Of a stretch of 53,236 nt of DNA, positions 1 through 17,384 are shown one piece after another (positions within the stretch are counted from its first letter, which is position 1; each line of letters opens with the position of its first letter). The DNA comes from Oligoflexales bacterium (GTDB lineage: Bacteria > Bdellovibrionota_B > Oligoflexia > Oligoflexales > JALZUQ01). The stretch is from the NCBI GenBank assembly GCA_041740975.1, contig JBGSKV010000114.1, forward strand, positions 1-53,236, written 5' to 3'. Below the pieces are notes generated by a model that did not search any database, was not told the origin of the DNA, and saw only the letters and a list, made by a program, of their open reading frames with translations. The position numbers were made by a program, and so were the translations under genes.

Positions 1-206
1 TTAAAAAACTGCCGATCCTTTCCCAGTTATCACTACTGGTCTCTACTACGTAAGTTCGCAAATGACCCAAGCTTGCTTGACCAGTTCAAAGTCTCGGAAG
101 AAGATGATGAACCGCCGATGAGTAAGTTCGGTTGAATTCATTTAATGTTAGTGTATGACATGTATTTAGGGCTATATAATCCCACGTCGAATGTCGTTTC
201 AAGACT

Positions 207-243
207 TTGACAATAGTTATCATATAAGATAACTATAAAATGG
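207..243 (+). promoter_or_regulatory. Candidate promoter/operator: TTGACA (207-212) followed by 8-bp-arm inverted repeat TAGTTATC-N6-GATAACTA (214-235) and a TATAAAAT box
   Basis: Read directly from the sequence. It lies about 95 nt upstream of the HigA-like ORF at 336. A palindrome overlapping the promoter is typical of autoregulated TA operators. Confidence 0.35.
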
Positions 244-335
244 GAGACTTATATAGTCGAAGTCTCCGGATTTAGTGCCAATGGGGCGGATTTCACGCTG
301 GCCCGCAAATATTGGGCTGACTGGAAAAAGAGGGT

Positions 336-647
336 ATGACCATGCCAAAACGAAGCCAAGACTGGAACGAAAGTCTGAGCCTAGACTTGCGTGATCCAGA
401 GTTTACGCGCGAATTTATCCTTGCGAGTCTTGACGAGGGTACAGATCTCCAAAGCGTCCTCGGCAAAGTTGTTCGGACATATGGTGTAAAGGAATTTGCA
501 AAGAAAGTTAAAATGGCTAGTCCAAATCTTTTGCGCGTCATCGACCCCAAACATAATCCCACGCAAGATACACTCAACCGGATCCTCAAGCCGTTTGGAC
601 TAAAGCTGACTGTTGCGCCCATCGGTGATCATAAAAAAGCGGGCTAG
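336..647 (+). CDS. HTH addiction-module antidote protein (HigA-like, orphan, no adjacent toxin)
   Basis: 103 aa with N-terminal acidic and HTH content (SQDWNESLSLDLRDPEFTREFILASLDEGTD...) resembling addiction-module antidote proteins. No toxin ORF lies upstream within the window. Confidence 0.55.
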   Translation: MTMPKRSQDWNESLSLDLRDPEFTREFILASLDEGTDLQSVLGKVVRTYGVKEFAKKVKMASPNLLRVIDPKHNPTQDTLNRILKPFGLKLTVAPIGDHKKAG

Positions 648-891
648 TAATTTGGCGGTGTCCATCCAGCTCAATGCTTCGCGCGTCGGTACTCATTCAT
701 AGGTCCAATCTCGGTAGGTGGCGTAATTGAGTGGTCAGTGGCCGACAAATGCCCCTGCGTTTAACATTCAATTGTTCGTAGATTTTCGAATTAAAAGTAA
801 CCAAATATATCAATTACTTAGTCGTTAAAACTTAAGTGAGTTAAAGATTTTTCTGGATTTGCCGATAGGCAAATTGTATAAAGGAGTTCGG

Positions 892-1305
892 GTGCAAAAC
901 CCTCACTTTGAATTGGCTGAAATCCAGCGACTAGCAGCAGAGTGGAAGATTGAAAAAAAGTCAGGTTGGTTTAGCGCTCCATCATGTTCTACGGATTACG
1001 TCATCCATGTTTTTCAATGCTCTGAGATCGAAGCGGTAGAAATCATTCTTGAAGGTATTTCAATGCTGAAGCTCGAAGATTTCCAAGCAAGTGTGATGGT
1101 GTGGGATGATGTGGCTGATGAATATGGACTTTGTTCATATTTGGGTCGCAATTGGTATGTGAAGCTTCGAATTGATGATGACAATGTATTAAATGAAATT
1201 TCTTTTCATCCTTGTGAAAAAGACATGCAACTTCCATCCGGACGAATATTAACAGTTTCGATTGCCAAAGAAGATTTGCCCCCTTGGAGAAAAGTAAAAA
1301 AATGA
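892..1305 (+). CDS. MqsR-like type II toxin (mRNA interferase)
   Basis: The N-terminus PHFELAEIQRLA aligns with E. coli MqsR PHTRLSQVKKLV. The C-terminus NWYVKLRIDDDNVLNEISFHPCEK aligns with QVYLKITVIHDVLIVSFKEK. Start is a GTG 6 nt after AAAGGAG. The ORF-track start at 859 is an upstream TTG. Confidence 0.6.
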   Translation: MQNPHFELAEIQRLAAEWKIEKKSGWFSAPSCSTDYVIHVFQCSEIEAVEIILEGISMLKLEDFQASVMVWDDVADEYGLCSYLGRNWYVKLRIDDDNVLNEISFHPCEKDMQLPSGRILTVSIAKEDLPPWRKVKK

Positions 1306-1757
1306 CAGATCTTTCGAAAAAACGATGTGGAGAGTGTGGCGAAAAGGCCTACGAACGTCGCGCAATCAGAGGTCATTGGAAGAAGCCCTGGAAAGACTTT
1401 CCGTCTGTTTTCCTAACGAAGCAACTCGAACTGTGGGTTTGCCGGGCTTGTAAATCCCATGCGGTGTCGTCTGCTGATGCGATAAGAATTGACGAAGCTA
1501 TCGATGCTTCTGTTCGCGATCAAGCCGCTCAGTTCTTGCAAGTTATAAAATCGAAGTCTGGATTGAAGTTTGAAATTATTGCCGAACGTTTGGGATATAG
1601 TCCGAACTACATTGCAAGCCTCAATAATCTAAACGCCACTCCCTCATTTAAGCTTTGGAATCAGCTAAAGTCGATATCTGTTAACCCCAAGTCCGAGATG
1701 GAACTACTTGATCCAAACTTTGACATCATTAAACAGAATCTTTTGCTGCGGGCATGA
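1302..1757 (+). CDS. MqsA-like antitoxin (N-terminal CxxC...CxxC zinc ribbon plus C-terminal HTH)
   Basis: ATGA start/stop overlap with the upstream toxin. Has CGEC...CRAC zinc-ribbon pairs and an HTH (LKFEIIAERLGYSPNYIASL). The toxin-first order matches mqsRA. Confidence 0.6.
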   Translation: MTDLSKKRCGECGEKAYERRAIRGHWKKPWKDFPSVFLTKQLELWVCRACKSHAVSSADAIRIDEAIDASVRDQAAQFLQVIKSKSGLKFEIIAERLGYSPNYIASLNNLNATPSFKLWNQLKSISVNPKSEMELLDPNFDIIKQNLLLRA

Positions 1758-1840
1758 TCTTGCTAATTGGTGGCGAAAAAAAATCGCAGCCAAAAGACAT
1801 CGAAACTGCACGAAAGAGAATGAACGAGGAGAGGTAATTA

Positions 1841-2200
1841 ATGTCTAAATTTTCCAAGAAAAAGATGGATCGATTTGATGATTATGAAGATATTCGCCGT
1901 GCCAGACTTGGTACGAAAGAGCGAAATAGAATAGACTTAGAAGCATCTGCAGAACTTGGGGCTCTCAAAGCTATGCAAGAGCTTTTGATTGAAGAAATGA
2001 AAGCTTTTATGATCAAAGAAGGAATTGGCATTGTCGAATTGACTAAACGTTTAGAAACAAGCACCAGACAAACCTCCCGAATCATGAAGGGTGAAGCCAA
2101 TGTAACGTTGGCTACATTGGCGGAAGTTGCGATTCATATAGGTAAAGTTCCAAGAATCGTGTTTGAAGATTTCAAGCAACCAGCTCGAAAAGCTAGATAA
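1841..2200 (+). CDS. XRE-family HTH DNA-binding protein (orphan antitoxin-like)
   Basis: 119 aa with a C-terminal HTH (IGIVELTKRLETSTRQTSRIMKGEANVTLATLAEVA). A GAGGAG RBS lies upstream of the ATG. Confidence 0.5.
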   Translation: MSKFSKKKMDRFDDYEDIRRARLGTKERNRIDLEASAELGALKAMQELLIEEMKAFMIKEGIGIVELTKRLETSTRQTSRIMKGEANVTLATLAEVAIHIGKVPRIVFEDFKQPARKAR

Positions 2201-2264
2201 TACATTCTCTATACTTTCGATATCGGTCCAGTTCAAAGTTTGGCGCGCCACTATCGGGAAGTAA

Positions 2265-2606
2265 TCAGGGATGTGGCGTAATGGCGATGATCGTAAGGCA
2301 ATGTTTTAGGACTTTAGGCTTCTTGCCTTTCTTCGGATTCTTTTCAAGCTCATATGGGCCGTAGTGCCAGAATATTCTGTAGGCACCCGAAGTTTTATTT
2401 TGAGCGTAGGACTCAAAAACGTCCTCATTGTTTTTACCAGTGAGCGAAGAGTATTTATGAGTTTGTAAGCTTGGGTGCTTAAGATTCGTTTGCATGAGCC
2501 CCAGAGCTTTTCGGACCTGCTTTAGGATATTTTTTTTGGCAGAATTCGCGACGAGTTCATCGTAATTCTCTTGTGCCTCATCGGTAAATTTCAAACAGAA
2601 CTGCAT
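2265..2606 (-). CDS. YhaV-like / RelE-superfamily toxin
   Basis: GKNNEDV...GAYRIFWHYGP resembles YhaV GKNKDW...GRYRLFFRY. It lies 15 nt downstream of the AbrB-fold antitoxin gene on the same strand. Confidence 0.45.
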   Translation of the reverse strand: MQFCLKFTDEAQENYDELVANSAKKNILKQVRKALGLMQTNLKHPSLQTHKYSSLTGKNNEDVFESYAQNKTSGAYRIFWHYGPYELEKNPKKGKKPKVLKHCLTIIAITPHP

Positions 2607-2621
2607 TTAGTACCGCAAAAT

Positions 2622-2888
2622 TTAGTCTTGATCTACGTATTCAGAAAAATCTTCGGGAGCATCGTTAGTTTTCCCAGCAGCCGAATCTGCCAATCCTCTC
2701 TTGACGCTTTCAAGAGCTTTTTTATTGCGAAAGAGCCAGACTTCTTGAGCCGGTACTTCGATCAGTGGCTTTAAAAGGAGATTGCCGTTTGTAAGTTCTT
2801 CAACTTCAAAACTAGAGGCTCCTTTAGCGAGGGCACCGAGGGTGATGCGGCCTTTATCCCCAACAGCTAATTTTTTTAAGGATGACAT
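2622..2888 (-). CDS. AbrB/MazE/PrlF-family antitoxin (swapped-hairpin DNA-binding domain)
   Basis: The N-terminus KLAVGDKGRITLGALAKG is an AbrB/SpoVT-type motif. An acidic C-terminal tail is present. It precedes the toxin gene. Confidence 0.55.
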   Translation of the reverse strand: MSSLKKLAVGDKGRITLGALAKGASSFEVEELTNGNLLLKPLIEVPAQEVWLFRNKKALESVKRGLADSAAGKTNDAPEDFSEYVDQD

Positions 2889-2904
2889 TGTTGTACTCCA
2901 AGCT

Positions 2905-2924
2905 CCGATATTCTCCCATATCGG
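2905..2924. promoter_or_regulatory. Inverted repeat CCGATAT-N6-ATATCGG upstream of the PrlF/YhaV-like operon
   Basis: Perfect 7-bp arms seen in the sequence, immediately 5' of the minus-strand antitoxin start. Confidence 0.3.
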
Positions 2925-3109
2925 TATTTTCCCACTTTTCTTTAGTGGGAATGCCTATCGAATATAGCTGGGACCAGTAAAAATGCAAGATCTCATGCTA
3001 ACTATCTGATAATTAATGAAAATATTCAGGCACAGAGGCCGTGCTACGCCCGAAGTCATTGGGCGATATCATCGACCAGCATCACAACTCTTCTGCAACT
3101 ATAGACTAA

Positions 3110-3126
3110 TACGTATAAAATACGTA
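3110..3126. promoter_or_regulatory. Inverted repeat TACGTAT-AAA-ATACGTA overlapping a TATAAAAT -10-like box upstream of higB
   Basis: Perfect 7-bp arms seen in the sequence, about 17 nt upstream of the HigB start. Confidence 0.35.
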
Positions 3127-3142
3127 CTATCCGAGGAGCGGC

Positions 3143-3421
3143 GTGATGCAAATTCTTTTGTCTCGTACTGCAAAGAAGCAGCTTCTCCTATGCCCCAAGT
3201 ATATCGCGCGCAAGTTTGATTACTGGGTTGATATGCTCGACACGGTAGGCCTGCGGGAGGCCAGAAAGCACCGTGGGTTTCAGGATGAGCCCTTGCAAGG
3301 TGATAGACAGGGGCAACGATCGGCTCGACTCTCAAAAAGCTACCGAGTCATTTACCGCGAAGTTGGCGAGAGAGCATTCGAGATCATCGAAGTGCTGGAG
3401 GTAAACAAACATGAATACTAA
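3143..3421 (+). CDS. higB: HigB toxin (plasmid-maintenance killer, RelE/ParE superfamily)
   Basis: C-terminal signature PLQGDRQGQRSARLSKSYRVIYREVGERAFEIIEVLEVNKHEY matches the HigB-family LQGD...W...YR....VDY..YH pattern. A GAGGAG RBS is present. Confidence 0.75.
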   Translation: MMQILLSRTAKKQLLLCPKYIARKFDYWVDMLDTVGLREARKHRGFQDEPLQGDRQGQRSARLSKSYRVIYREVGERAFEIIEVLEVNKHEY

Positions 3422-3674
3422 AAAAATGGACTTATCGTTGGGCGAGTTTCTGCGAGTACATCGAATGGGCGAGGATTTGTCTCAGGTAGAGCTTGCAAAG
3501 ATTCTCGGAATCTCCAAGCAACGTCTTTGTGATATCGAGCACGATCGTTTTTCCGTGAGTTTAAAGCTCGCGAAGGATATCGCCAAAAAGTTGAAAATGC
3601 CTCCAGAGTGGCTCGCAAAACTCGCTCTACAGGATCAGATTAGAAAAGAGCGGCTCAATCTCAAAGTAAGTTAG
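3411..3674 (+). CDS. higA: HigA antitoxin (XRE HTH)
   Basis: Overlaps the higB stop by 11 nt. HTH: LSQVELAKILGISKQRLCDIEHDRFSVSLKLAKDIAKKL. Confidence 0.7.
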   Translation: MNTKKMDLSLGEFLRVHRMGEDLSQVELAKILGISKQRLCDIEHDRFSVSLKLAKDIAKKLKMPPEWLAKLALQDQIRKERLNLKVS

Positions 3675-3856
3675 GTGTAAATTAGGTCTAATGACCCTCA
3701 TTCCCGCTCTTAATTTCGCCCAATGTGTCAGTGGACGACCTGCTACTAACCATTAAACTTCCTATACGATGATGGGGGCTATCTCCCTGAAATCGATACT
3801 TTTATCCAATTAATAATTCTCAGCTATATACCGATAAGGTATATCATAGGTATCCT

Positions 3857-3955
3857 ATGAAATTTGAATGGGATTCGAGAAAGAGTTCTAAAAACAAAGA
3901 AAAGCATGGCATTGATTTCCTAGATGTCGAGGAACTTTGGCTCCAGAAAAGATGA
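3857..3955 (+). pseudogene. Truncated BrnT toxin remnant (32 codons: MKFEWDSRKSSKNKEKHGIDFLDVEELWLQKR, then stop)
   Basis: The N-terminus matches the BrnT/DUF497 consensus (FEWD..K...N..KHG..F). The ORF stops after 32 codons, whereas full-length BrnT is about 90 aa. Confidence 0.5.
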
Positions 3956-3966
3956 GGTTGAGTTAT

Positions 3967-4224
3967 ATGGCTAAGTTGAAAAAGCAAAAAAATAAGAGTG
4001 CGGAAGAGTTTGAAAAGCGCTTCGACTCTGGCGACGAAATCATTAGTGAGTTCGATCTCGACACGGCGATCAAAAAAGTAAACGTCGATTTTCCTCAGTG
4101 GATGGTCAAGATTTTGGATTTTGAGGCGACGCGGCTGGGCATTCCAAGACAAGCCGTTATCAAGACTTGGATCAACGATCGAATCGAGTCGAACAAGCGA
4201 GATGAGCGTCGTTCCGTAGGTTGA
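3967..4224 (+). CDS. brnA: BrnA-like antitoxin (CopG/RHH-like)
   Basis: PQWMVKILDFEATRLGIPRQAVIKTWINDRI is typical of the BrnA antitoxin. It overlaps the truncated BrnT remnant in a different frame. Confidence 0.6.
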   Translation: MAKLKKQKNKSAEEFEKRFDSGDEIISEFDLDTAIKKVNVDFPQWMVKILDFEATRLGIPRQAVIKTWINDRIESNKRDERRSVG

Positions 4225-4315
4225 GCAGCCAACTGAACCCATCTATACAAAATATTTTGTCAGTAGCTGACACACATTCACCAGCTTATCTTCTGCGTAG
4301 GAAGTAGGAGGTCGA

Positions 4316-4612
4316 ATGCAGCCCGAAGTATCTCAAAAGCAAATCGGATTCATGGGGCTTGCGCTCGAAAATATCCTCGCATTGGATGCCTCTCTCAGAT
4401 CCAGGATAGGCGTCCAGCTTCTTAAGATTCTGGCGGGGATTCTTCCGCTGGAGTTGGAGTCAATGCAAGTGCTTGGCAACGGCGTTGTCGAGATCAAAGT
4501 CATGGGAGACGACGGAGCGGTAGCGAAGTCACTATTTATCGCCACACAAACGAGTGCAATGAGGAGGGTGCCAGGGGATGGCGCAGGAGAAGTTGGTTTG
4601 TGGGTTATGTGA
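4316..4612 (+). CDS. gp49-like (HigB/RelE-superfamily, phage-related) toxin paralog A, C-terminus diverged
   Basis: Strong paralogy to ORF 4691 over about 65 aa (RSRIGVQLLKIL...VLGNGVVEIKV vs KSRIGFQLRKVQ...TIGVGVLEIRV). AGGAGG RBS. The C-terminus lacks the usual ...LLHGF.KKTQKTP end. Confidence 0.45.
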   Translation: MQPEVSQKQIGFMGLALENILALDASLRSRIGVQLLKILAGILPLELESMQVLGNGVVEIKVMGDDGAVAKSLFIATQTSAMRRVPGDGAGEVGLWVM

Positions 4613-4642
4613 TCCCAAGCCTTAAGCTGCATTCTAAACACA

Positions 4643-4663
4643 TATATACAATCTATTGTATAC
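4643..4663. promoter_or_regulatory. Inverted repeat TATACAAT-CT-ATTGTATA between the two gp49-like genes
   Basis: Perfect 8-bp arms seen in the sequence, about 30 nt upstream of ORF 4691. Likely an operator. Confidence 0.3.
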
Positions 4664-4690
4664 AAATAAACGTATATCGGATATGTTGAT

Positions 4691-5042
4691 ATGACCAAGG
4701 GCGAAACTCGTCGCAGAAAAATTTGTTTCGTTGGGTCCTCTTTATCAGACTTGAGGAAGCTGGATGAAACGGTGAAAAGCCGTATAGGTTTTCAGCTTCG
4801 CAAGGTTCAAGAGGGGCTGCTGCCGGACGATTACAAGCCAATGTCGACGATTGGAGTAGGTGTTCTTGAAATCCGAGTAGAGAGCGAGGATGGGAAAAAA
4901 TGTCGGCCGTTGTTTTTACGTCGCAAAGTTTAAAACAGAAATTTATGTTCTGCATAGCTTTGTAAAAAAATCGCAGAAAACGTCGAGATTAGATCTAGCA
5001 AAAGGTCAGCAAAGATATCGGCAACTCATACGGGATTTGTGA
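4691..5042 (+). pseudogene. gp49-like toxin paralog B, disrupted by a single-nt frameshift near 4925-4932
   Basis: Frame 2 reads to ...CRPLFLRRKV then stop at 4933. The next frame continues KTEIYVLHSFVKKSQKTSRLDLAKGQQRYRQLIRDL, which carries the LLHGF.KKTQKT gp49 C-terminal signature. It ends at 5042 just before the HTH antitoxin. Confidence 0.5.
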
Positions 5043-5053
5043 AAAGAGATAAA

Positions 5054-5350
5054 ATGAGCATTGTAAAAATTGACAGCGAAAAGCTTTTTGAAAAATTAGG
5101 ATTCTCAGATGAGGATTCGGCGATACTGCGGTTCAAGGCAGACCTATACATAGAAATCTGTAAAATCGTCCAAAAGAAGAAATACTCTCGTCGTCAACTT
5201 GAAAAAATATTTGATGCCCCGCAGTCCAGAGTGTCTGAGCTTATGACTGGTAAACTAGACAAAATCTCAATCGAGAAGCTCATCAACTATATAGAAAAGC
5301 TTGGAGCTGTCGTTAAGCCGGTCGTGACAAAGGACCGGCGTGTTGCGTAG
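5054..5350 (+). CDS. HTH antitoxin partner of gp49-like toxin
   Basis: ...QSRVSELMTGKLDKISIEKLINYIEKLGAVV matches the HTH partner found with gp49/HigB-like toxins. It starts 12 nt after the toxin stop. Confidence 0.6.
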   Translation: MSIVKIDSEKLFEKLGFSDEDSAILRFKADLYIEICKIVQKKKYSRRQLEKIFDAPQSRVSELMTGKLDKISIEKLINYIEKLGAVVKPVVTKDRRVA

Positions 5351-5475
5351 GTTAAGCCTCGTTCTGCTAGCTTTCACCTAAGCTGATATTTTCACTAGGC
5401 TTCTTTCCTTGCTTTATATCGGCGGCGAAAAATCCATCAGAATATGCTATAGGAGATGCCTCAAGGAGGTTCTCC

Positions 5476-6345
5476 ATGAAAACAATCATTCTACTTTTGA
5501 GTTCACTTTTTAGTTTTACAGCTTTGGCTGCCGACCCGCTCGAAGCTCCCAAGATCTTCGAAAAAGACGGCTACAAGTACTACTCTTGCGAATACTCGAA
5601 AGACGCCGTGAACATCGCGCTCTACGAAGTCGATACTGAGTTTCGCGCCCTCGCACCGGGACTTAAACCCGATATTTGTTTTGGGCAGATAAAATGTGCC
5701 CGCCAGAATATCGATACAGGTAAAACATCTTGGGCCGAGTTTCTGATGTCATGCGATGCCAACCTCGGTTCTACCTGTCCGACAGCGATGGAATGCGGTT
5801 CGCGCGGTTCAAAAGTTGCACCGATGGTAAATACCGCGCCGCAAATTCAGACGCGAGCGGCAGCTTATGAAGGGTATGTCGATGCGCCTTCCACAGAAAT
5901 CCCAGCCTCATTCAACAAAGGCACCGAAGTTTACACGGCTTGCACGTACGAACAAAAAACGCCCGCGCTCCTCAAGGTTGTCAAAGACCCTAAAGCAAAA
6001 TGGAACCCTTCCATTTGTATGGGTCATACAACGTGCACCGGATTAAACGGTTTGCAAGGCAGAGGCACGGCGTTTTGCGCCGCCAATCCAGACGACTCGT
6101 GTCCGACGGCAATGGAGTGTATGACGCGACGCCACGATTTTTTCACGGGTTTCAATCCGGACCCGCGCATCCTTAGTAGTCGTGACGCACACACCGAAAT
6201 GCTCGCCGCACGCGATGCGGTAAAAATAGAAATCTCGCGGTTACAGAAGCTCGACTCCGGCGAAGCGCGCGAAGCTCTGCGCAAACTACAGGGCCAAGAG
6301 GCGTTCTATAAACTAGCCTTGGAAAACTGGATTTCAAATCAGTAA
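5476..6345 (+). CDS. Secreted Cys-rich protein with internal duplication (…STCPTAMECGSRG… / …DSCPTAMECMTRR…)
   Basis: Signal peptide MKTIILLLSSLFSFTALAADP. Repeated Cys motifs. No recognised family. Confidence 0.5.
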   Translation: MKTIILLLSSLFSFTALAADPLEAPKIFEKDGYKYYSCEYSKDAVNIALYEVDTEFRALAPGLKPDICFGQIKCARQNIDTGKTSWAEFLMSCDANLGSTCPTAMECGSRGSKVAPMVNTAPQIQTRAAAYEGYVDAPSTEIPASFNKGTEVYTACTYEQKTPALLKVVKDPKAKWNPSICMGHTTCTGLNGLQGRGTAFCAANPDDSCPTAMECMTRRHDFFTGFNPDPRILSSRDAHTEMLAARDAVKIEISRLQKLDSGEAREALRKLQGQEAFYKLALENWISNQ

Positions 6346-6397: not shown

Positions 6398-8065
6398 TTA
6401 TTCGTACTCGGTAAAAATCAGCGCGCTCATTTCGCCTGCATCGTCGCCGCGATTTTCAATACTTTCGTGTCCAAGGCGACCGGAGTTAGCGCGTCCCCAG
6501 CATTTGAGTCTGTCATCGTTGAATAACGCACAAGTATGCACGTTACCAGTCGCCACTAGCTTGGCGTCGCTGATACCTAAAACTGCGGGTAAGCTGGCCA
6601 TATCGCCCGGGCTTCCCCCCATGTTATTTGTATTGTCCGCTCCCAGTTGCCCGTGAAGATTGTTTCCAAAGCACTTCAGTTGATTAGTATTATTCAAAAC
6701 GCAAGTAAAGTAGCCGCTAGCGGTGACTTGCTTGATATTTGCAAGGTTAGAAATCACCCCGAGTCCCGTCATCTCTCCAACTTGCCGACCAATACTTGCC
6801 GTGTCGTCGCTACCAAGCTGTCCATCACTGCCTTCACCCCAACATTTTACATTTCCATCATTTAACAACGCGCAGGCATGGTAGCTTCCGGCGTGAACTG
6901 AGACGGCATTATCTATGCCGATAACCTCAGGCAAGGCTTCCATTTCACCTGGAAGGGAGCCGCGAGTTGCATCCGTACTTTCGATTCCGAGCTGACCGGC
7001 ATTGTTGTTACCCCAGCATTTGACCTTTCCGGTGCTCAAGCGAGCGCAATAAAAATGCGTGCCTGCAGTTATTTGCGTGGCATTGGTAATTCCTATGACA
7101 GAAGTCAACGTTGCCATTTCTCCTGGGGCGTCGCCTTGCGGCGTAGCGATATTGACGCCTAACTGACCTAACGTGCTTTGGCCCCAGCATTTTATTTCGC
7201 CGTTTGCGAGCAAGGCGCAGGTGTTACTGTATCCCGCGGCCACTTGAATGGCGTCACTAATGCCGATGACATCGACGGCGTCAGCCATCGCTGTGCCACT
7301 ACCGTTGCCTACACTAGTCGTAGAGTCGATGCCCAAGCGACCATTGGCATTACCACCCCAGCAGCGAATTTTGCCGGAGTCAAAGAGGACGCAGGTGTGA
7401 TTCAGTCCCGCAGAAATTTGGACAGGTGCACCAGAGCTTGAGCCAAGGTTGATATCAGCACCAACCCCGTTGGGGGGAGGCATGTGGTTTGCGGCCGCAC
7501 CTATCGAGTTAGTGGCATCAGTTCCTAGTTGTCCGGAAGTTCCGGAGCCCCAGCAGCGAACTCCTCCCGATCGTCGAATAATGCATGTATGGGCTTCTCC
7601 AAGGGCAAGATGTTTGGCGTTGAGTCCTTCCGGAGTGTCTACGGAAGTTTGAACGTACGAGGAGGTATTATTCGCGGCGTCTTTGACTAAAACATTGAAG
7701 TAGTATGTCTGATCGACATCTAAGTTTGCGACGAGTTCATTGGTCAAGTTTGGCGTCCAGTCTTTTACGACCACGCCATTACTCTCGGCATTGGCGACAC
7801 TATCAATGTTAGCGCTGTTCGAACGCACGACTTTATATTGTAGATTCGCGGCGGCAGTTTTATTATCGCTTCCCGCAGTCCATGAAATATTGACGGTCGT
7901 GTGGGTGACGTCCGAGATATTAAGGCTTCCGCTGGCGCCGGCAGTTGGCGCGGTCGTGTCCGCCGTGTCAGTTGGCTGATCTTTTTTGTCTTTTTTATCG
8001 GAAGAGGACTTGCAAGACAGGGCCGTTAAAAGCACAAGAACCGAAATCGCTACTCGCATATTCAT
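6398..8065 (-). CDS. Lipoprotein with N-terminal fibronectin-III-like domain and RCC1/BLIP-II repeats
   Basis: Signal/lipobox MNMRVAISVLVLLTALSC. At least 7 repeats of the ...CWG.....GQLG... type (RCC1). FN3-like LNISDVTHTTVNISWTAG. Confidence 0.7.
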   Translation of the reverse strand: MNMRVAISVLVLLTALSCKSSSDKKDKKDQPTDTADTTAPTAGASGSLNISDVTHTTVNISWTAGSDNKTAAANLQYKVVRSNSANIDSVANAESNGVVVKDWTPNLTNELVANLDVDQTYYFNVLVKDAANNTSSYVQTSVDTPEGLNAKHLALGEAHTCIIRRSGGVRCWGSGTSGQLGTDATNSIGAAANHMPPPNGVGADINLGSSSGAPVQISAGLNHTCVLFDSGKIRCWGGNANGRLGIDSTTSVGNGSGTAMADAVDVIGISDAIQVAAGYSNTCALLANGEIKCWGQSTLGQLGVNIATPQGDAPGEMATLTSVIGITNATQITAGTHFYCARLSTGKVKCWGNNNAGQLGIESTDATRGSLPGEMEALPEVIGIDNAVSVHAGSYHACALLNDGNVKCWGEGSDGQLGSDDTASIGRQVGEMTGLGVISNLANIKQVTASGYFTCVLNNTNQLKCFGNNLHGQLGADNTNNMGGSPGDMASLPAVLGISDAKLVATGNVHTCALFNDDRLKCWGRANSGRLGHESIENRGDDAGEMSALIFTEYE

Positions 8066-10469: not shown

Positions 10470-11828
10470 ATGAAGATGGCAGTTGCGATTCTTTTATTCT
10501 TAGTTCCGGTAGTCAGTTATTCAGACGATATCGAAAGGCCCTTCCCCATCAATCGCAGCCCGGATGGGAAACAATCGCATTACAAAACTGTTGAGCGAGC
10601 GAACTGGGAGCATAACTACGCGGTTGAGTCGAGCATCTGCGCTTCCAAAGCCATGCATATCTTGGGACAGCTCGAAAGCATCATCAAAAACGATCTTTCC
10701 ACGGAAGCTAGCTCGAAGCCAGTCTTTCTCGAAGCTCAGCTTAGCAAGTTAGATGCGGGGGCGGTTGATGTTCAGGCGTTTGAGACGCTGGCCTTTCAAG
10801 CGGCATTGACCGGCTATACGCAACTTGATTCCTACCTCAGCGCAAACTACGACATGCGTCCACTGACCAACTTTCGGGCGTTGTTTTCTATTCAAGAGCG
10901 ATTCTTCGGTAAGGTTGTCGAGGCGATAGGCGCTCAGTTCGACGCGACTTCACGAGACGAGCTCATCGCCAAAATAAAAGAACTCGACCAAAAAAATGAA
11001 AAACTCATCGAAGTTCTCAATCGCCAGACCGTAGTCGATTCCGGTGCGTTGCAACTTCTATCACTCACGTCATCAAAGCTTCGCATGCTGAAAGGCGACT
11101 TCGACAATTACTACGATTATGTTTTATCGCCGTACTGTCTTTATCAGCCTTTTACGAAATACGTCACGCCTGCACGCGAGGCGGTTGATGAATGGATAGC
11201 TGAGTTCGAGACGTTGGAGCATCACGTCAACGCCGAACAAACCATGCGGAGCCGCATCGTTGATATGATTCACTCTTCCACTCGACTGTACTTACAAGTC
11301 TTATGGGCAGCTTCGGCTAATGAAGATATTTCCACTCTTCGCCAAGAACTCAAAAAAGTCATGGCACTCGACTTGCTGTCACATGAATTAAACCAGTGGT
11401 GGAACAACATCGCCTCGGGTGGCATCACCGGAGGACTTCATACGCAGTTTCTTCAGTATGAAGCATCGCTTTCTCGCTTGAAAATGTATCGTGGCAAACT
11501 CGATCAGTTTCGACGCCGCATGGAAGCGCTTTCCATTCCTTCCGCACAGACCCAAACGTTTCTTAAAGATCGTTTGAAGCTCATTGAAACAGAAATTTCT
11601 TCGGCGGAAATGTCCGTTCGCCAACAAGGCTGGAAGGGTATGCATAAGCGCCAGCGCTTTCTTAATGAAAAACGCCTCAACGTGATCGATCAGTTTGTGC
11701 CTCAGTGCAAATTTGCCATCGCAGCTTACCAAGCGCTGGACTCTGACTCCATCGATGAAGACGGCTACAAATATCTCGAAGCCCAATACCGAACCGTGGT
11801 CGCTGCGTGCAAAGGAGCGCAACAATGA
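10470..11828 (+). CDS. Hypothetical secreted, helical protein. Stop overlaps the start of the ART toxin gene (ATGA).
   Basis: Signal MKMAVAILLFLVPVVSYSDD. 452 aa with no recognised domain. Translationally coupled to the next gene. Confidence 0.5.
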   Translation: MKMAVAILLFLVPVVSYSDDIERPFPINRSPDGKQSHYKTVERANWEHNYAVESSICASKAMHILGQLESIIKNDLSTEASSKPVFLEAQLSKLDAGAVDVQAFETLAFQAALTGYTQLDSYLSANYDMRPLTNFRALFSIQERFFGKVVEAIGAQFDATSRDELIAKIKELDQKNEKLIEVLNRQTVVDSGALQLLSLTSSKLRMLKGDFDNYYDYVLSPYCLYQPFTKYVTPAREAVDEWIAEFETLEHHVNAEQTMRSRIVDMIHSSTRLYLQVLWAASANEDISTLRQELKKVMALDLLSHELNQWWNNIASGGITGGLHTQFLQYEASLSRLKMYRGKLDQFRRRMEALSIPSAQTQTFLKDRLKLIETEISSAEMSVRQQGWKGMHKRQRFLNEKRLNVIDQFVPQCKFAIAAYQALDSDSIDEDGYKYLEAQYRTVVAACKGAQQ

Positions 11829-13915
11829 AAAACCAATATTTGTTTCTAGTTTTACTTTTTTTAGGATTTAGCCAAGTTATCACAAGAGACGCAAACGGTG
11901 ATCCAGGTGATTCAACTCACTGGGACTTTGATGAAAATGGTAATCCTCAACATGGCGATGGCCACGGCGGATTTGGCGGCGGTATGGGGCCCATCACTCC
12001 GGGCGGTGGAAATAGTGGCGGCGGAAACAATGGTGGCAATGGAGGCAACGGCGGAAATAATGGCGGAGGAAACAACGGAGGCGATGGCGGCGGAGACGAC
12101 GACTTCGATGATGACTTCGATGATGATTCGGGCGACGATGACAACGGAAATGGTTCAGGAGGCAGTGGAGGTAGTGGAGGTAGTGGAGGTGGATCGGGAG
12201 ATAACGATGGTCATTTTAATCCAGGAAATGGCGGCGGAGGCAATCAACCCCCGCCCAACAAAACTCTTATCAATGGCGAGTGGGTTGATGATGCCGATGT
12301 TCCTTGGGTTCGAGCCAAGATCGCCGAAGCGGAAGCAGCCAAAGAAAGATTCAAAGCTGATGCAAAAGCCTTAGAAGACAAATACAAAAATTTAAACTTA
12401 AAACAAACTAGTGACGAAAAACGAAAAGACTCAGCGCAAACTCGCATTGAAATAGCCAAGTCACATAACGATTACGTCAAGCAAGTTGAAGATCAGCTAC
12501 CAAATCCAGAAGATTTACCTGGTTCAGATCCTTATCCGTTCACCACACCCGCTTCGAGTGTGGATGGGCAGAAACTGAAAGAAATTCAGGACTACCGCGA
12601 TTACGTAAAAGGCGTCGTTGATCAAAGCAACGACGCTCCCTCCACCAAACAAGCACGTCAAGGCCTCGTAGATGTAGCGGACACCGCGATCCATACAGCG
12701 GATCACGCTTATTCATCTGGGGATCGTGAGGCTGGAGAAATTTCTAAAGAAATGGCCGAGACGACACTCGATCTTGCACTTAGTTTTACGCCAGGTGTGG
12801 GTTGGGCGAAGGATGTTTATGAAGCAGCTTCCGGAAAAAGCTTAGTGACTGGCGACGCGCTCTCTAACTTCGACAGAAACTTAGCCGTACTGGGAGCCTG
12901 CACGGGCGGCCTTGCTAGTAAGTTCAAAGTGTTTTCGAAGTCCGCCAATGTCATCAAAAAAATGGCTTCAAAGTTTCCGGGTAGCTCCACACTTTTTGCA
13001 GGATTAGGAAAGTTCTGGAAGAAAGGCTCACAACACGAGTCCGAACTTCACGCGGCAGCCGAAGCCTTCGAAAAAAACAAACACACATTCCCCGAAATAA
13101 CCTCGGCGAAAGAATACGTGAAAAAGGCGCACGATATTGCCAATAATCCAGCCGCAGACTCGTTTACTCATGTAGTTCCAGGTGGCGGCGAGCTTTATAT
13201 GGATAAGCTCAACAGGTTATACGTGGAAAAATACGGCTCGCTACCACAAAACATGTACAAACGTGCAGACGATGTGTTTGATGCGGGTGCTAAAGTGGAT
13301 TTGCCATCGGGCAGTGTGAATTCTAAATACTATAAAGCAGATCAAGATACCCTTAACAAATACAGAAATGATCCAAGCCATTTTGAAGATGGCGAACTTT
13401 CCAACTTTGATATCATCGACCAAAATGCATTAGAGTTGAAGGCCAAGCATCCGCATCTGGCTGAGTTAAGTAACGAAGAGGTCGATGCTTTGCGACGTTA
13501 CACGGGAATGGGACATGACAAAATCAACAAAGCTTTACGAAATGGCGACATGAGCGAACTGTCCAGACTTGATCCGCAGATTAAGGCGATACTCTCGGGC
13601 ATGAACAAGTTGCCGCCTTACAAAGGTAATGTCTTAAGAGGCGTGTCGATTCCCGACACGGAAATCGCAAAACATGTCGTCGGCCAGGAGATTACGATGA
13701 AAGCGTTCACAAGTTCCTCTAAATCAAAGGCCTGGACCGGCAACAACGTCTTATATACTATCAAGTCTCATCAAGGACGTGATGTCAGTAGTGTGGCCTT
13801 CTGGGCTAAAGAAGAAGAGGTACTGTTCCAAGCGGGCACTCGGTTCAAAGTCATTCAAAAAAATTATTCACCTACTTCTGGATCTTGGGTCATTCAAATG
13901 GAGGAGATTCTTTAG
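11825..13915 (+). CDS. Secreted polymorphic-toxin-like protein: signal peptide, Gly/Asn-rich and poly-Asp/Phe low-complexity region, pre-toxin TG-like domain, and C-terminal C3/VIP2/iota-type ADP-ribosyltransferase domain
   Basis: ATG at 11825 is 7 nt after AAGGAG. The ORF-track start at 11807 is an in-frame GTG. The ART motifs are in order: LRRYTGMGHDKINKALR (helix), YKGNVLRGV (Arg), FTSSSKS (S-x-S), and EEEVLFQAGTRFKV (ExE on the ARTT loop, implying arginine specificity). The PT-TG-like stretch is FTPGVGWAKDVYEAASGKSLVTGDALSNFDRNLAVLG (about 12783-12900). Confidence 0.7.
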   Translation: MKNQYLFLVLLFLGFSQVITRDANGDPGDSTHWDFDENGNPQHGDGHGGFGGGMGPITPGGGNSGGGNNGGNGGNGGNNGGGNNGGDGGGDDDFDDDFDDDSGDDDNGNGSGGSGGSGGSGGGSGDNDGHFNPGNGGGGNQPPPNKTLINGEWVDDADVPWVRAKIAEAEAAKERFKADAKALEDKYKNLNLKQTSDEKRKDSAQTRIEIAKSHNDYVKQVEDQLPNPEDLPGSDPYPFTTPASSVDGQKLKEIQDYRDYVKGVVDQSNDAPSTKQARQGLVDVADTAIHTADHAYSSGDREAGEISKEMAETTLDLALSFTPGVGWAKDVYEAASGKSLVTGDALSNFDRNLAVLGACTGGLASKFKVFSKSANVIKKMASKFPGSSTLFAGLGKFWKKGSQHESELHAAAEAFEKNKHTFPEITSAKEYVKKAHDIANNPAADSFTHVVPGGGELYMDKLNRLYVEKYGSLPQNMYKRADDVFDAGAKVDLPSGSVNSKYYKADQDTLNKYRNDPSHFEDGELSNFDIIDQNALELKAKHPHLAELSNEEVDALRRYTGMGHDKINKALRNGDMSELSRLDPQIKAILSGMNKLPPYKGNVLRGVSIPDTEIAKHVVGQEITMKAFTSSSKSKAWTGNNVLYTIKSHQGRDVSSVAFWAKEEEVLFQAGTRFKVIQKNYSPTSGSWVIQMEEIL

Positions 13916-14766
13916 TGACGAAACATAATGCGACGCAACTTCCGGATATTTTCGACCGCGAATTCTATTTTGATGGAATGAGTTTTCGTCGGATTGCGTC
14001 GCTTCGCGCGTCATTTTTGGAAAAGCTTGCCGAGATCGGTCCACAATCTTCCAGCATCGAGTTTGAAGGGCGAGTGAAAGACTTGTTTCTCGCGCTAGCT
14101 AACGAGGATGACCCGAAGCAACCTTTGGAGTTCGTGGCCACGGCAATGGGGTGCATTCGATTCTTTGAGCGCTCTTTACTTAAGGGCGTTGCTGATTTTT
14201 CATCGTGCTTGGAAGCTGAGTATCGGCGCTGGCAAGAACTGCAAGGAGGTCGTGATGAGGAATGCCTTCCTTTGTGTCGAGTTGTTCCTATTGGCGTGTT
14301 TTTTGCTCCGGTCGAAGCATTTGAGTACGGAAAGCAAAGCGCTCAACTGACGAGCGGGCAAAAGTCAGCAATTTTGTCGGCGGGATTTATGGCGGCACTG
14401 ATTTCGGGACTGCTACGAGGCGGAAATTTCTTCCAATCATATGATAAGGCAATGGCGATTTTCAAAAAAGAACTGGGCTGTAAAGAAATCGTCGAATGCC
14501 TTGCAGGAGCCGCAAAACTCGCCGCAGATCCATCCAAAACACACGAGGCTATTCGGTCCATAGGACCATGTCTTCAACCTAACCAGACAAAAGGCAGCAC
14601 CCCCGCTCGTGCGATCACAGCTAGTATTTATGCGGTAATGGGCCTTGAAAATTCGACTCGTCAGTCCGACACCAACCAGCTCAAAGACTACGATAAGCTT
14701 ACTGCTCTCGCCTCCGAGTGTTCTGATCTTCGGTCTACTCTTAATACCGACCAGACTCGCGCCTGA
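13915..14766 (+). CDS. Candidate immunity protein for the ART toxin (no recognisable domain)
   Basis: A GTG at 13915 overlaps the toxin TAG by 1 nt (taGtg), with GGAGGAG 8 nt upstream. 283 aa from this start. The ORF-track start at 13885 lies inside the toxin gene. Genetic linkage is the only evidence for the immunity role. Confidence 0.45.
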   Translation: MTKHNATQLPDIFDREFYFDGMSFRRIASLRASFLEKLAEIGPQSSSIEFEGRVKDLFLALANEDDPKQPLEFVATAMGCIRFFERSLLKGVADFSSCLEAEYRRWQELQGGRDEECLPLCRVVPIGVFFAPVEAFEYGKQSAQLTSGQKSAILSAGFMAALISGLLRGGNFFQSYDKAMAIFKKELGCKEIVECLAGAAKLAADPSKTHEAIRSIGPCLQPNQTKGSTPARAITASIYAVMGLENSTRQSDTNQLKDYDKLTALASECSDLRSTLNTDQTRA

Positions 14767-17269: not shown

Positions 17270-17384
17270 TATCCTTTATATTAGAAATTTCCCCCATCTA
17301 GGACTTCCTAACCCCTTTTATGTTTTAAATCAAGGAAAGATCCTATATAGTGGAAACCGTCAGTACCCATATACGAGGCAAACC

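What the first reader, a model, noticed from the sequence alone, without database searches (positions are those of the whole stretch)
1..5400. Compact toxin-antitoxin island: seven TA-type modules in 5.4 kb, several visibly decaying
Adjacent, mostly co-directional modules from different families are packed into 5.4 kb. They are an orphan HigA-like antidote, MqsR/MqsA-like, an XRE HTH orphan, YhaV/PrlF-like (minus strand), HigB/HigA, BrnT(truncated)/BrnA, and two gp49-like toxins with one HTH antitoxin. Nearly every module has its own palindromic operator, at 214-235, 2905-2924, 3110-3126 and 4643-4663. This density, together with truncated or frameshifted toxins, is the hallmark of a TA/defence-island hotspot rather than a core-genome region.
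Basis: partly seen in the sequence, partly recalled or inferred. Interest (0 to 1): 0.6.

Follow-up and report, generated by a model that had tools for sequence, protein, structure and literature searches.

The report
Eroding toxin-antitoxin gene cluster
The first 5.4 kb of this Bdellovibrionota-like contig is a tight cluster of seven small toxin-antitoxin modules, about half of them with a broken or missing toxin gene; this is a well-documented pattern, so the finding is real but ordinary.

Summary
Window 1-5400 carries 13 small genes or gene remnants forming seven type II toxin-antitoxin (TA) modules.

- **Apparently intact pairs (3):** a distant MqsR/MqsA-like pair; a YoeB/RelE-fold toxin with a probably AbrB-type antitoxin; a RelE-family toxin with an XRE-HTH antitoxin in HigBA order.
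- **Eroded toxins (3):** BrnT is cut to 26 of 77 profile positions next to an intact BrnA. One Gp49-family toxin is split by one extra A in an A6 run. A second Gp49 paralogue lacks its C-terminal half and has no homologue elsewhere.
- **Orphan antitoxin-like HTH genes (2):** neither has a toxin partner.
- **Palindromes:** eight perfect palindromes lie in 1321 nt of intergenic DNA, against 0.7 expected. One or two precede every module except the second orphan.

One family label is wrong in detail. The "YhaV/PrlF-like" pair is a YoeB/RelE-fold toxin from a large unannotated family.

The "hotspot, not core genome" reading could not be tested. The window is a whole contig that starts inside the cluster. 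The nearest genomes found share only one gene with it. There is no tRNA, integrase, attC site or known defence gene.

TA clustering with toxin-first erosion is already described (Belot et al. 2026). Verdict: a new member of a known kind, of low interest.

The parts
1..135 (+). 3' end (44 codons plus stop) of a gene cut off by the contig start; identity unknown
   Evidence: Translation; no Pfam hit. The window is the whole contig.
213..236 (.). Palindrome ATAGTTAT-N8-ATAACTAT, candidate operator overlapping -10-like TATAAG/TATAAAAT boxes upstream of O1
336..647 (+). O1: orphan HI1420-type (HigA-like) HTH antidote; the start may be ATG 342. No toxin gene lies upstream within the contig.
   Evidence: Pfam dnstrm_HI1420 26.9 bits (cut-off 27); TIGR02684 E 8.6e-8; phrog_4268 E 1.5e-10. 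No toxin remnant in 136-335.
857..874 (.). Palindrome ATTTGCC-GATA-GGCAAAT, 18 nt upstream of the O2 start; candidate operator
892..1305 (+). O2: distant MqsR-like toxin (137 aa; GTG start preceded by AAGGAG)
1302..1757 (+). O3: MqsA-like antitoxin with a Zn ribbon (C9, C12, C47, C50) and a C-terminal HTH; its ATG overlaps the O2 stop (ATGA)
   Evidence: TIGR03830 E 1.6e-5 over positions 1-121 of 127. Cys residues conserved in the partner of a homologue. The pair is conserved in L003-L006.
1841..2200 (+). O4: orphan HTH protein (119 aa), antitoxin-like, with no partner and no upstream palindrome
   Evidence: HTH_26/BetR E 0.01-0.03; HigA TIGR02607 E 0.034; phrog_1373 E 5e-6, the same PHROG family as O13.
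2265..2606 (-). O5: YoeB/RelE-fold toxin (113 aa) with a 15-residue loop insertion relative to most of the family
   Evidence: More than 1167 homologues, mostly 'hypothetical'. Invariant E65, R77 and H112. AF2 pLDDT 91; top PDB hits are YoeB, YafQ, RelK and ParE. No YhaV model hit.
2622..2888 (-). O6: antitoxin partner of O5, probably with an AbrB/MazE-type N-terminal domain (motif D.KGRI.LG)
   Evidence: Family of 514 representatives. Weak MazE/MraZ hits in 5 of 45 members. Always found immediately upstream of O5 homologues.
2905..2951 (.). Two palindromes, CCGATAT-N6-ATATCGG (2905-2924) and TTCCCACT-N7-AGTGGGAA (2929-2951), upstream of the O6-O5 operon
3110..3126 (.). Palindrome TACGTAT-AAA-ATACGTA overlapping a TATAAAAT box upstream of O7
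3143..3421 (+). O7: RelE/StbE-family toxin (likely start ATG 3146), placed first as in higBA
   Evidence: TIGR02385 31.1 bits (cut-off 27.9); ParE_toxin E 3e-4; phrog_1213 'RelE-like toxin' E 1.2e-9.
3411..3674 (+). O8: XRE-HTH antitoxin overlapping O7 by 11 nt
   Evidence: HTH_3 36.3 bits; HTH_19 30.3 bits.
3826..3844 (.). Palindrome ATATACC-GATAA-GGTATAT upstream of the BrnT remnant
3857..3955 (+). BrnT toxin remnant of 32 codons; the C-terminal two thirds or so are deleted
   Evidence: Pfam BrnT_toxin positions 1-26 of 77 only. No continuation in any frame. Identical in the independent assembly L012.
3967..4224 (+). BrnA antitoxin, intact
   Evidence: NF047399 80.2 bits (cut-off 60), positions 2-70 of 70.
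4247..4260 (.). Palindrome ACAAAAT-ATTTTGT upstream of O11; it shares the ACAA..TTGT core with the palindrome at 4645-4662
4316..4612 (+). O11: degenerate Gp49-family toxin paralogue. Only the N-terminal ~76 residues are recognisable, and no antitoxin follows.
   Evidence: Gp49 positions 2-51 of 90, E 0.013. phrog_2523 positions 4-64 of 108. 38% identity to O12 over residues 4-76. No homologue other than itself in the 5.8-billion-protein search. No C-terminal motif in any frame.
4645..4662 (.). Palindrome TATACAAT-CT-ATTGTATA upstream of O12
4691..5042 (+). O12: Gp49-family (HigB-like) toxin split into two frames (4691-4933 and 4890-5042) by one extra A in the A6 run at 4895-4900
   Evidence: Gp49 positions 2-56 (30.7 bits) and 50-89 (42.8 bits) in different frames. 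The sequence with one A removed matches phrog_2523 positions 4-106 of 108, 96 bits.
5039..5350 (+). O13: HTH_37 antitoxin, intact; its GTG overlaps the O12 stop (an alternative ATG lies at 5054)
   Evidence: HTH_37 55.3 bits (cut-off 27); phrog_2339 E 4.6e-15.

Best explanation
The region is a chromosomal cluster of independent type II toxin-antitoxin operons in a Bdellovibrionota-like genome assembled from a metagenome. The modules were probably gathered by repeated insertion into one permissive spot and are now in different stages of erosion.

**How each intact module is expected to work (inferred from family knowledge, not shown here).**
- It is a small bicistronic, translationally coupled operon.
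- The antitoxin binds DNA through an XRE-HTH, Zn-ribbon plus HTH, AbrB-like or BrnA-type domain. It binds the palindrome that overlaps its own promoter and represses transcription.
- The antitoxin also neutralises the toxin by direct binding.
- When the labile antitoxin is lost, the toxin cleaves mRNA and stops growth. Every toxin here has a RelE-like ribonuclease fold: MqsR-like, YoeB/RelE-like, RelE/StbE, BrnT or Gp49/HigB-like.

**State of the modules (shown by sequence).**
- Three pairs look intact: O2-O3, O6-O5 and O7-O8.
- Three toxin genes are inactivated: a deletion in BrnT, a +1 frameshift in O12, and loss of the C-terminal half of O11.
- Two antitoxin-type genes (O1 and O4) have no toxin partner.
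- No antitoxin gene is visibly damaged.

This is the toxin-first decay expected once addiction is no longer selected.
For: - **Family and fold assignments** for 12 of the 13 genes come.
- **Operon features.** The gene junctions are ATGA or GTGA overlaps, an 11-nt overlap, or gaps of about 11-15 nt.
- **Conserved stand-alone pairs.** The O2-O3 and O6-O5 pairs recur as two-gene modules in unrelated contexts in other assemblies. This shows they are autonomous modules.
- **Operator candidates.** Eight perfect palindromes lie in 1321 nt of intergenic DNA against 0.72 expected (0 of 300 shuffles). Six of the seven modules have at least one.
- **Erosion.** BrnT covers 1-26 of 77 profile positions. 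O12 is restored by removing one A. O11 has no homologue anywhere and matches only half of the profile.
- **Independent assemblies** confirm 1694-3085 and 3741-4669.
- **Patchy taxonomy.** O5 homologues at 53-58% identity occur in Verrucomicrobiota, Chlamydiota, Alpha- and Gammaproteobacteria and Bdellovibrionota, which fits horizontal spread.
- **Composition.** GC3 of the island genes ranges from 0.32 to 0.57.
- **Confined to the cluster.** No TA family was hit among the 45 larger ORFs tested elsewhere in the window.
- **Literature.** In Photorhabdus, type II TAs cluster in small genomic spots. Toxin-only pseudogenisation (N = 185) far outnumbers antitoxin-only loss (N = 8) (PMC13617665).
Against: - No toxicity, neutralisation or DNA binding has been measured for any of these genes.
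- Several assignments fall below curated thresholds: MqsR 14 bits against 26.2, MqsA 24.7 against 61.8, O1 26.9 against 27. O4 and O6 have only weak hits.
- The idea of repeated insertion into a permissive, variable spot is inferred. No close relative was available. No mobile-element gene, tRNA or repeat boundary was found.
- The left border lies beyond the contig end.
- The O12 frameshift sits in a homopolymer and is not independently verified.
- With 3 of 6 toxins and 0 of 7 antitoxin-type genes damaged, the asymmetry is only suggestive (hypergeometric p about 0.07, my own calculation).
Confidence: 0.85

Rival explanations
1. The cluster is the edge of a mobile element (integrative island, prophage remnant or plasmid-derived segment) whose integrase and attachment site lie beyond the contig start. 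In that case the TA modules are its stabilisation cargo. This partly overlaps with the best explanation.
For: - The cluster abuts the contig end, and a truncated gene runs off at position 1.
- Homologous TA pairs in other assemblies also sit within 1 kb of contig ends.
- Gp49 and RelE-like families have PHROG (phage) counterparts.
- In Photorhabdus, TA clusters are sometimes associated with integrases or transposases (PMC13617665).
Against: - No integrase, transposase or phage structural gene was found among the window ORFs tested.
- There is no tRNA.
- There is no DNA similarity to 50,697 phage or 72,556 plasmid records.
- GC content of the cluster (0.43) is close to the rest of the contig (0.45).
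Confidence: 0.25
2. The array is a cassette array of a sedentary chromosomal integron. In such arrays TA cassettes with their own promoters are common and mostly co-directional.
For: Six of the seven modules are co-directional, compact and carry their own promoter-proximal palindromes. The analogy with TA cassettes in Vibrio superintegrons is from my own knowledge.
Against: - No R'' (RYYYAAC) and R' (GTTRRRY) core-site pair lies at 50-160 nt spacing on either strand of 1-5600.
- No repeated intergenic sequence family was found.
- No intI-like gene was found among the ORFs tested.
- One module is inverted.
Confidence: 0.02
3. The two 'orphan antitoxins' (O1 and O4) are ordinary stand-alone transcription regulators that happen to lie among TA modules, rather than remnants of TA pairs.
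For: - O4 has only weak, generic HTH hits and no upstream palindrome.
- O1 also matches a phage 'transcriptional repressor' PHROG family.
- No toxin remnant is detectable next to either gene.
Against: - O1's best matches are the HI1420 'addiction module antidote' models over nearly their full length.
- O4 matches the same PHROG family as the bona fide antitoxin O13.
- Both are embedded in a run of TA modules.
Confidence: 0.3
4. The apparent decay, or the juxtaposition itself, is an assembly or sequencing artefact. Examples are a chimeric contig end or a homopolymer error that creates the O12 frameshift.
For: - This is a metagenome-derived contig with the cluster at its end.
- The O12 lesion is a single base in an A6 run.
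- No independent contig covering 4670-5475 was found.
Against: - Logan assemblies of two runs reproduce 1694-3085 and 3741-4669 at 99.9-100% identity. These stretches include the BrnT truncation, BrnA, O11 and the O4-O5-O6 arrangement.
- Base composition is continuous across the junction with the flanking genes.
Confidence: 0.07

Closest known systems
Chromosomal type II TA clusters with toxin-first erosion (Photorhabdus laumondii TT01; Belot et al. 2026, PMC13617665)
   Same: - Several unrelated type II TA modules are packed into one small spot, without other defence systems.
- Toxin genes are truncated or frameshifted while antitoxins persist.
- Orphan antitoxins are present.
   Different: - The phylum differs (Bdellovibrionota-like MAG rather than Gammaproteobacteria).
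- No pangenome is available here to show turnover.
- No associated recombinase is seen.
E. coli MqsR/MqsA (PDB 3HI2; Brown et al. 2009, PMC2791442)
   Same: - The toxin gene comes first.
- The antitoxin has a four-Cys zinc ribbon at the N-terminus and an HTH at the C-terminus.
- A palindrome lies upstream.
   Different: - The toxin is 137 aa rather than 98 aa and only 17% identical.
- Both proteins score below the curated thresholds of the MqsR and MqsA models.
- The family has conserved Cys/His motifs that were not compared with MqsR.
- The palindrome sequence differs from the E. coli mqsRA operator (E. coli operator recalled from my own knowledge).
YoeB/YefM, YafQ/DinJ and YhaV/PrlF (RelE-superfamily toxins)
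   Same: - O5 has the RelE/YoeB fold (TM 0.78 to 6n90_B).
- It carries an invariant Glu, Arg and near-C-terminal His.
- The antitoxin comes first in the operon.
- An AbrB-type antitoxin paired with a RelE-fold toxin is the PrlF-YhaV arrangement.
   Different: - There is no significant sequence match to the YoeB, YafQ or YhaV models.
- The antitoxin is not Phd/YefM or RHH.
- The AbrB assignment for O6 is weak.
- The window's copy has a 15-residue loop insertion.
HigB2/HigA2-type and HI1419/HI1420-type modules (Gp49 toxin with an HTH antidote)
   Same: O12-O13 has the Gp49-family toxin first, followed by an HTH_37 antitoxin. O1 is an HI1420-type antidote.
   Different: The O12 toxin is frameshifted. 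O11 is a half-length paralogue without an antitoxin. O1 has no toxin.
BrnT/BrnA (Brucella abortus)
   Same: BrnA is full length and above threshold, and the brnT-brnA gene order is retained.
   Different: BrnT keeps only its first ~30 residues.

Membership tests
Type II toxin-antitoxin module (generic) | Two small adjacent co-directional genes with a short gap or overlap, one with a toxin fold and one with a DNA-binding antitoxin | tested here: met
   O2-O3 (ATGA overlap), O6-O5 (15-nt gap), O7-O8 (11-nt overlap) and O12-O13 (GTGA overlap), with the family and fold assignments.
Type II toxin-antitoxin module (generic) | Palindromic operator in the promoter region for autoregulation | tested here: met
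   Eight perfect palindromes in 1321 nt of intergenic DNA against 0.72 expected. Actual binding was not tested.
Type II toxin-antitoxin module (generic) | The toxin arrests growth and the cognate antitoxin neutralises it | not testable with these tools
   Needs kill-rescue assays.
MqsR/MqsA | Toxin with the MqsR (RelE-like) fold | tested here: met
   [not shown]
MqsR/MqsA | Sequence match to the curated MqsR_toxin (PF15723) and MqsA (TIGR03830) models above their cut-offs | tested here: not met
   MqsR_toxin 13.8-14.2 bits against a cut-off of 26.2. TIGR03830 24.7 bits against 61.8.
MqsR/MqsA | Antitoxin with an N-terminal four-Cys zinc domain and a C-terminal HTH-XRE, encoded downstream of the toxin | tested here: met
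   CGEC...CRAC (C9, C12, C47, C50) is conserved in the homologue's partner. The HTH lies at residues ~82-112 of the 157-aa ORF. Gene order. Defining features taken from PMC2791442.
YhaV/PrlF | Toxin matches the YhaV family model and antitoxin matches the PrlF model | tested here: not met
   Neither O5 nor O6, nor 31 and 45 family members respectively, gave a YhaV or PrlF hit at E <= 1.
RelE/ParE superfamily (YoeB-like) | RelE-type alpha/beta fold with conserved catalytic-type Glu, Arg and His | tested here: met
   pLDDT 91; the top 22 PDB matches are superfamily toxins. E65, R77 and H112 are invariant in 31 sequences. Their equivalence to the YoeB catalytic residues is inferred, not aligned.
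AbrB/MazE/SpoVT-type antitoxin (O6) | Swapped-hairpin AbrB-like N-terminal DNA-binding domain | tested here: inconclusive
   Only 2 of 45 family members hit MazE_antitoxin (best E 0.0023) and 3 of 45 hit MraZ. There was no PDB profile hit, and no structure model was made.
HigB/HigA-type (O7-O8) | RelE-family toxin encoded upstream of an XRE-HTH antitoxin | tested here: met
   RelE_StbE 31.1 bits (cut-off 27.9); HTH_3 36.3 bits (cut-off 23); toxin-first order. HigA TIGR02607 scores below its cut-off (26.4 against 47.7).
BrnT/BrnA | Full-length BrnT toxin together with BrnA antitoxin | tested here: not met
   BrnA scores 80.2 bits (cut-off 60), but BrnT covers only profile positions 1-26 of 77. 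This is a remnant module.
Gp49 (HigB-like) / HTH_37 | Intact Gp49-family toxin ORF followed by an HTH antitoxin | tested here: not met
   Both halves of Gp49 score above the cut-off but lie in different frames. The ORF is intact only after removing one A. The antitoxin is intact (55.3 bits).
Integron cassette array | attC recombination sites between cassettes, plus intI/attI | tested here: not met
   No R''/R' core-site pairs, no repeated intergenic family and no integrase among the ORFs tested. The region to the left of the contig could not be inspected.
Defence island | Co-location with known anti-phage systems | tested here: not met
   PADLOC gave only generic HTH hits for the island proteins. 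The neighbours are a secreted Cys-rich protein, an RCC1-repeat protein and a polymorphic toxin locus.
Variable genomic spot (hotspot) | Presence or absence, or content variation, between conserved flanking genes in close relatives | tested here: inconclusive
   Only two relatives were found, sharing the flanking gene at about 65-71% amino-acid identity. They share no other gene of window 1-31 kb near it. The metagenome scan found nothing.

The most novel reading that the evidence does not exclude
The surviving antitoxin genes are O1, O4, BrnA and O13. Each still has an intact reading frame, and three of the four keep an upstream palindrome, while their toxins are gone or broken. They may not be leftovers. 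Selection may maintain them as an 'antitoxin bank' that neutralises matching RelE-type toxins arriving on mobile elements. In a predatory Bdellovibrionota cell those toxins could also be released from consumed prey. The evidence here does not exclude this reading, but nothing here supports selection beyond the intact ORFs.
Probability: 0.07. Interest if true: 0.65.

Novelty: new member of a known kind. Interest (0 to 1): 0.22.

Why it matters
- **A worked example in a little-studied phylum.** The cluster shows the acquisition-and-erosion life cycle of chromosomal TA modules, with intact pairs, damaged toxins and orphan antitoxins side by side in 5.4 kb.
- **Two unannotated families flagged.** One is a 134-137 aa MqsR-fold toxin with an MqsA-like partner. 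The other is a YoeB-fold toxin family with more than 1000 members and a probably AbrB-type partner. Current Pfam and NCBIfam models miss both, so genome annotation could be improved.
- **No change to understanding.** The finding does not alter how TA systems are thought to work.

Tried and rejected
- **Single-sequence and profile HMM searches of O2, O3, O5 and O6 against PDB sequences.** Nothing significant came back. MqsR was not recovered by sequence. Predicted structures were needed instead.
- **Integron hypothesis.** No attC core-site pairs and no repeated intergenic family were found, so it was rejected.
- **Phage or plasmid origin.** No DNA match was found in either collection at blastn sensitivity.
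- **Comparison with relatives.** The genome scan with the flanking gene gave only two distant loci without synteny. The metagenome scan gave nothing. The variability test therefore failed for lack of data.
- **Upstream context and independent check of the O12 frameshift.** Exact-product look-ups failed for O1, the RCC1 protein, the annotated O2, the O12 fragment and both O13 start variants. Only short Logan contigs were retrieved.
- **Sigma-70 promoter scan.** It found fewer sites than the shuffles and was uninformative.
- **Rfam.** No RNA family was found in the window.
- **O4 as a third component of the MqsRA-like operon.** Rejected, because homologous loci have no third gene.
- **Cluster look-up for organism names.** It returned none.

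Full report
**Origin and setting**

The window is an entire NCBI contig of 53,236 bp. Proteins identical or 99% identical to window ORFs are recorded on a single contig of exactly that length.

The gene just right of the cluster (5476-6345) has its only detectable relatives in two Bdellovibrionota MAGs, at about 65-71% amino-acid identity.

Short Logan contigs from runs SRR28170464 and SRR28170465 reproduce parts of the cluster.

The cluster starts at the very end of the contig. A 44-codon gene fragment of unknown identity runs off at position 1.

**Gene content**

ORF listing and sequence reading give thirteen small genes or remnants in 5.4 kb. About 24% of the region is non-coding.

1. **O1 (336-647, +)** matches the HI1420-type addiction-module antidote models over nearly their full length.
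   - Pfam scores 26.9 bits against a cut-off of 27. TIGR02684 gives E 8.6e-8. phrog_4268 gives E 1.5e-10.
   - No toxin gene or remnant precedes it.

2. **O2 (892-1305, +) and O3 (1302-1757, +)** form a distant MqsR/MqsA-like pair. The O3 start overlaps the O2 stop (ATGA).
   - O2 has only a faint MqsR_toxin hit (E 0.06-0.08).
   - It belongs to a family of about 25 unannotated proteins of 133-137 aa.
   - O3 matches the MqsA family model TIGR03830 over positions 1-121 of 127 (E 1.6e-5, below the cut-off).
   - O3 has the CxxC...CxxC zinc ribbon followed by an HTH. The four Cys are conserved in the partner of a homologue. This is the defining MqsA architecture (PMC2791442).
   - The two genes recur together, 54% and 65% identical, in unrelated contexts.

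3. **O4 (1841-2200, +)** is a weakly supported HTH protein.
   - Pfam and NCBIfam give E 0.01-0.03. phrog_1373 gives E 5e-6, and the true antitoxin O13 hits the same family.
   - It has no partner. The MqsRA-like homologue loci have no third gene.

4. **O6 (2622-2888, -) and O5 (2265-2606, -)** form an antitoxin-first pair.
   - O5 belongs to a family of more than 1167 proteins, nearly all labelled 'hypothetical'.
   - Some family members give weak ParE_toxin or Gp49 hits, and none gives a YhaV hit.
   - The O5 model (pLDDT 91) matches YoeB, YafQ, RelK and ParE toxins in its top 22 PDB hits. The best is 6n90_B with target-normalised TM 0.78.
   - E65, R77 and a near-C-terminal H112 are invariant.
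   - O6 belongs to a family of 514 representatives. Only 5 of 45 members give weak MazE or MraZ (AbrB-fold) hits.
   - The pair is conserved as a stand-alone module in other Bdellovibrionota MAGs.
   - 'YhaV/PrlF-like' is therefore right only as an analogy. It is a RelE-fold toxin with a probably AbrB-type antitoxin, not a member of those families.

5. **O7 (3143-3421, +) and O8 (3411-3674, +)** are a RelE/StbE-family toxin and an XRE-HTH antitoxin.
   - O7 scores 31.1 bits against a cut-off of 27.9. O8 scores 36.3 bits on HTH_3.
   - The toxin comes first, as in higBA, and the genes overlap by 11 nt.

6. **A 32-codon BrnT remnant (3857-3955) precedes an intact BrnA (3967-4224).**
   - The remnant covers only positions 1-26 of the 77-position BrnT model.
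   - No continuation exists in any frame.
   - BrnA scores 80.2 bits against a cut-off of 60.
   - An independent assembly is 100% identical across this stretch.

7. **Two Gp49-family (HigB-like) toxin genes share one HTH_37 antitoxin.**
   - O12 (4691-5042) has its N- and C-terminal halves in different frames.
   - Deleting one A from the A6 run at 4895-4900 gives a 116-aa protein that matches phrog_2523 over positions 4-106 of 108, at 96 bits.
   - O13 (5039-5350) is intact at 55.3 bits.
   - O11 (4316-4612) is 38% identical to O12 over residues 4-76.
   - O11 lacks the C-terminal half in every frame and matches only positions 4-64 of 108 of the PHROG model.
   - O11 has no homologue but itself among 5.8 billion proteins.
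   - No antitoxin gene follows O11.

**Operator candidates**

A systematic count found eight perfect inverted repeats (arms of at least 7 nt, loop of at most 8 nt) in the 1321 nt of intergenic DNA.

- The expectation from 300 dinucleotide-preserving shuffles is 0.72 +/- 0.89, and none reached eight.
- Only 3 such repeats lie in 4019 nt of coding DNA.
- The eight lie at 213-236, 857-874, 2905-2924, 2929-2951, 3110-3126, 3826-3844, 4247-4260 and 4645-4662.
- They sit directly upstream of O1, O2, O6 (two), O7, the BrnT remnant, O11 and O12. Several overlap TATAAT-like boxes.
- The O11 and O12 palindromes share an ACAA..TTGT core, which fits an old duplication of that module.
- Only O4 lacks a palindrome.

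**What it is and how it works**

The best explanation is a cluster of autonomous type II TA operons.

- **Shown here:** gene order, coupling, folds and families, palindromes, and the lesions.
- **Inferred from the families:** the antitoxins repress their own promoters at the palindromes and neutralise their toxins, and the freed toxins are mRNA-cleaving ribonucleases.
- All six toxin genes or remnants belong to RelE-like ribonuclease folds.
- Three toxins are damaged, two antitoxin-type genes have lost their partners entirely, and no antitoxin is damaged.
- This direction of decay matches Photorhabdus. There, type II TAs cluster in small spots (14 co-localised pairs against 2.67 expected). Toxin-only pseudogenes (185) vastly outnumber antitoxin-only ones (8) (PMC13617665).

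**Hotspot or defence island?**

This part of the interpretation stays open.

- PADLOC finds no defence system.
- There is no tRNA and no Rfam hit.
- There are no attC sites or repeated spacers.
- There is no similarity to phage or plasmid DNA.
- The rest of the window encodes ordinary chromosomal functions, such as transporters, LysR, MscS, proteases and a hibernation factor. It has no recombinase and no further TA family among 45 ORFs tested.
- Next to the cluster lie a secreted Cys-rich protein, an RCC1-repeat protein and, at 11.8-14.8 kb, a PT-TG/ADP-ribosyltransferase polymorphic toxin with an ADP-ribosylglycohydrolase. The first ~15 kb may therefore be conflict-rich accessory DNA.
- In the nearest genomes, only the flanking gene is shared. 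Nothing can be concluded about variability.
- Indirect hints of horizontal acquisition exist:
  - O5 relatives have a patchy taxonomy.
  - GC3 of the island genes is heterogeneous, 0.32-0.57.
  - The cluster, and homologous pairs elsewhere, sit at contig ends.

**Verdict**

The phenomenon is already described, so this is a new member of a known kind and of low interest.

Two side results have modest annotation value. Current profile libraries miss both the MqsR-fold toxin family with its MqsA-like partner and the large YoeB-fold toxin family with its AbrB-like partner.

Noticed in passing
window 11807-14766: A 702-aa protein has a PT-TG pre-toxin domain and a C-terminal ADP-ribosyltransferase. 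Its 3' end is overlapped by an ADP-ribosylglycohydrolase gene. This looks like a polymorphic toxin with its immunity or antidote gene, 6 kb from the TA cluster.
   Followed up: no
[not shown]
   Followed up: partly
window 2265-2888; loci L008, L011: The O5 toxin family has more than 1167 members across many phyla, nearly all unannotated. It has a YoeB/RelE fold and a conserved upstream partner of about 90 aa. The window's copy and one relative (P0028) carry a 15-residue loop insertion.
   Followed up: partly
window 1; L004 and L008 contig ends: The cluster sits at the very start of its contig. Homologous TA pairs in other assemblies also lie about 330-570 nt from contig ends. Assemblies may tend to break at such modules.
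   Followed up: no
window 2352 (O5 codon 85); L013: A co-occurring variant in run SRR28170464 differs by one base in 1258 nt. It gives Y85N in the loop of the O5 toxin.
   Followed up: yes
window 3025-3054: A terminator-like GC-rich hairpin on the minus strand lies in the 254-nt spacer between the divergent O6 and O7 promoters. No gene upstream of it on that strand would need terminating.
   Followed up: no
window 6398-8065: A 555-aa protein with seven RCC1 repeats and a lipoprotein-like N-terminus lies next to the cluster.
   Followed up: no
window 17247-17930: A 227-aa HTH_3 protein is 31% identical to the antitoxin O8 over 75 residues. It is the only other XRE-type gene noticed in the window.
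   Followed up: no
window 1-5400 versus the rest: GC3 of the island genes spans 0.32-0.57 (lowest in O2, O4 and O6). Fourteen large genes elsewhere span 0.43-0.56. Overall GC is 0.43 for the island against 0.45 for the contig.
   Followed up: partly
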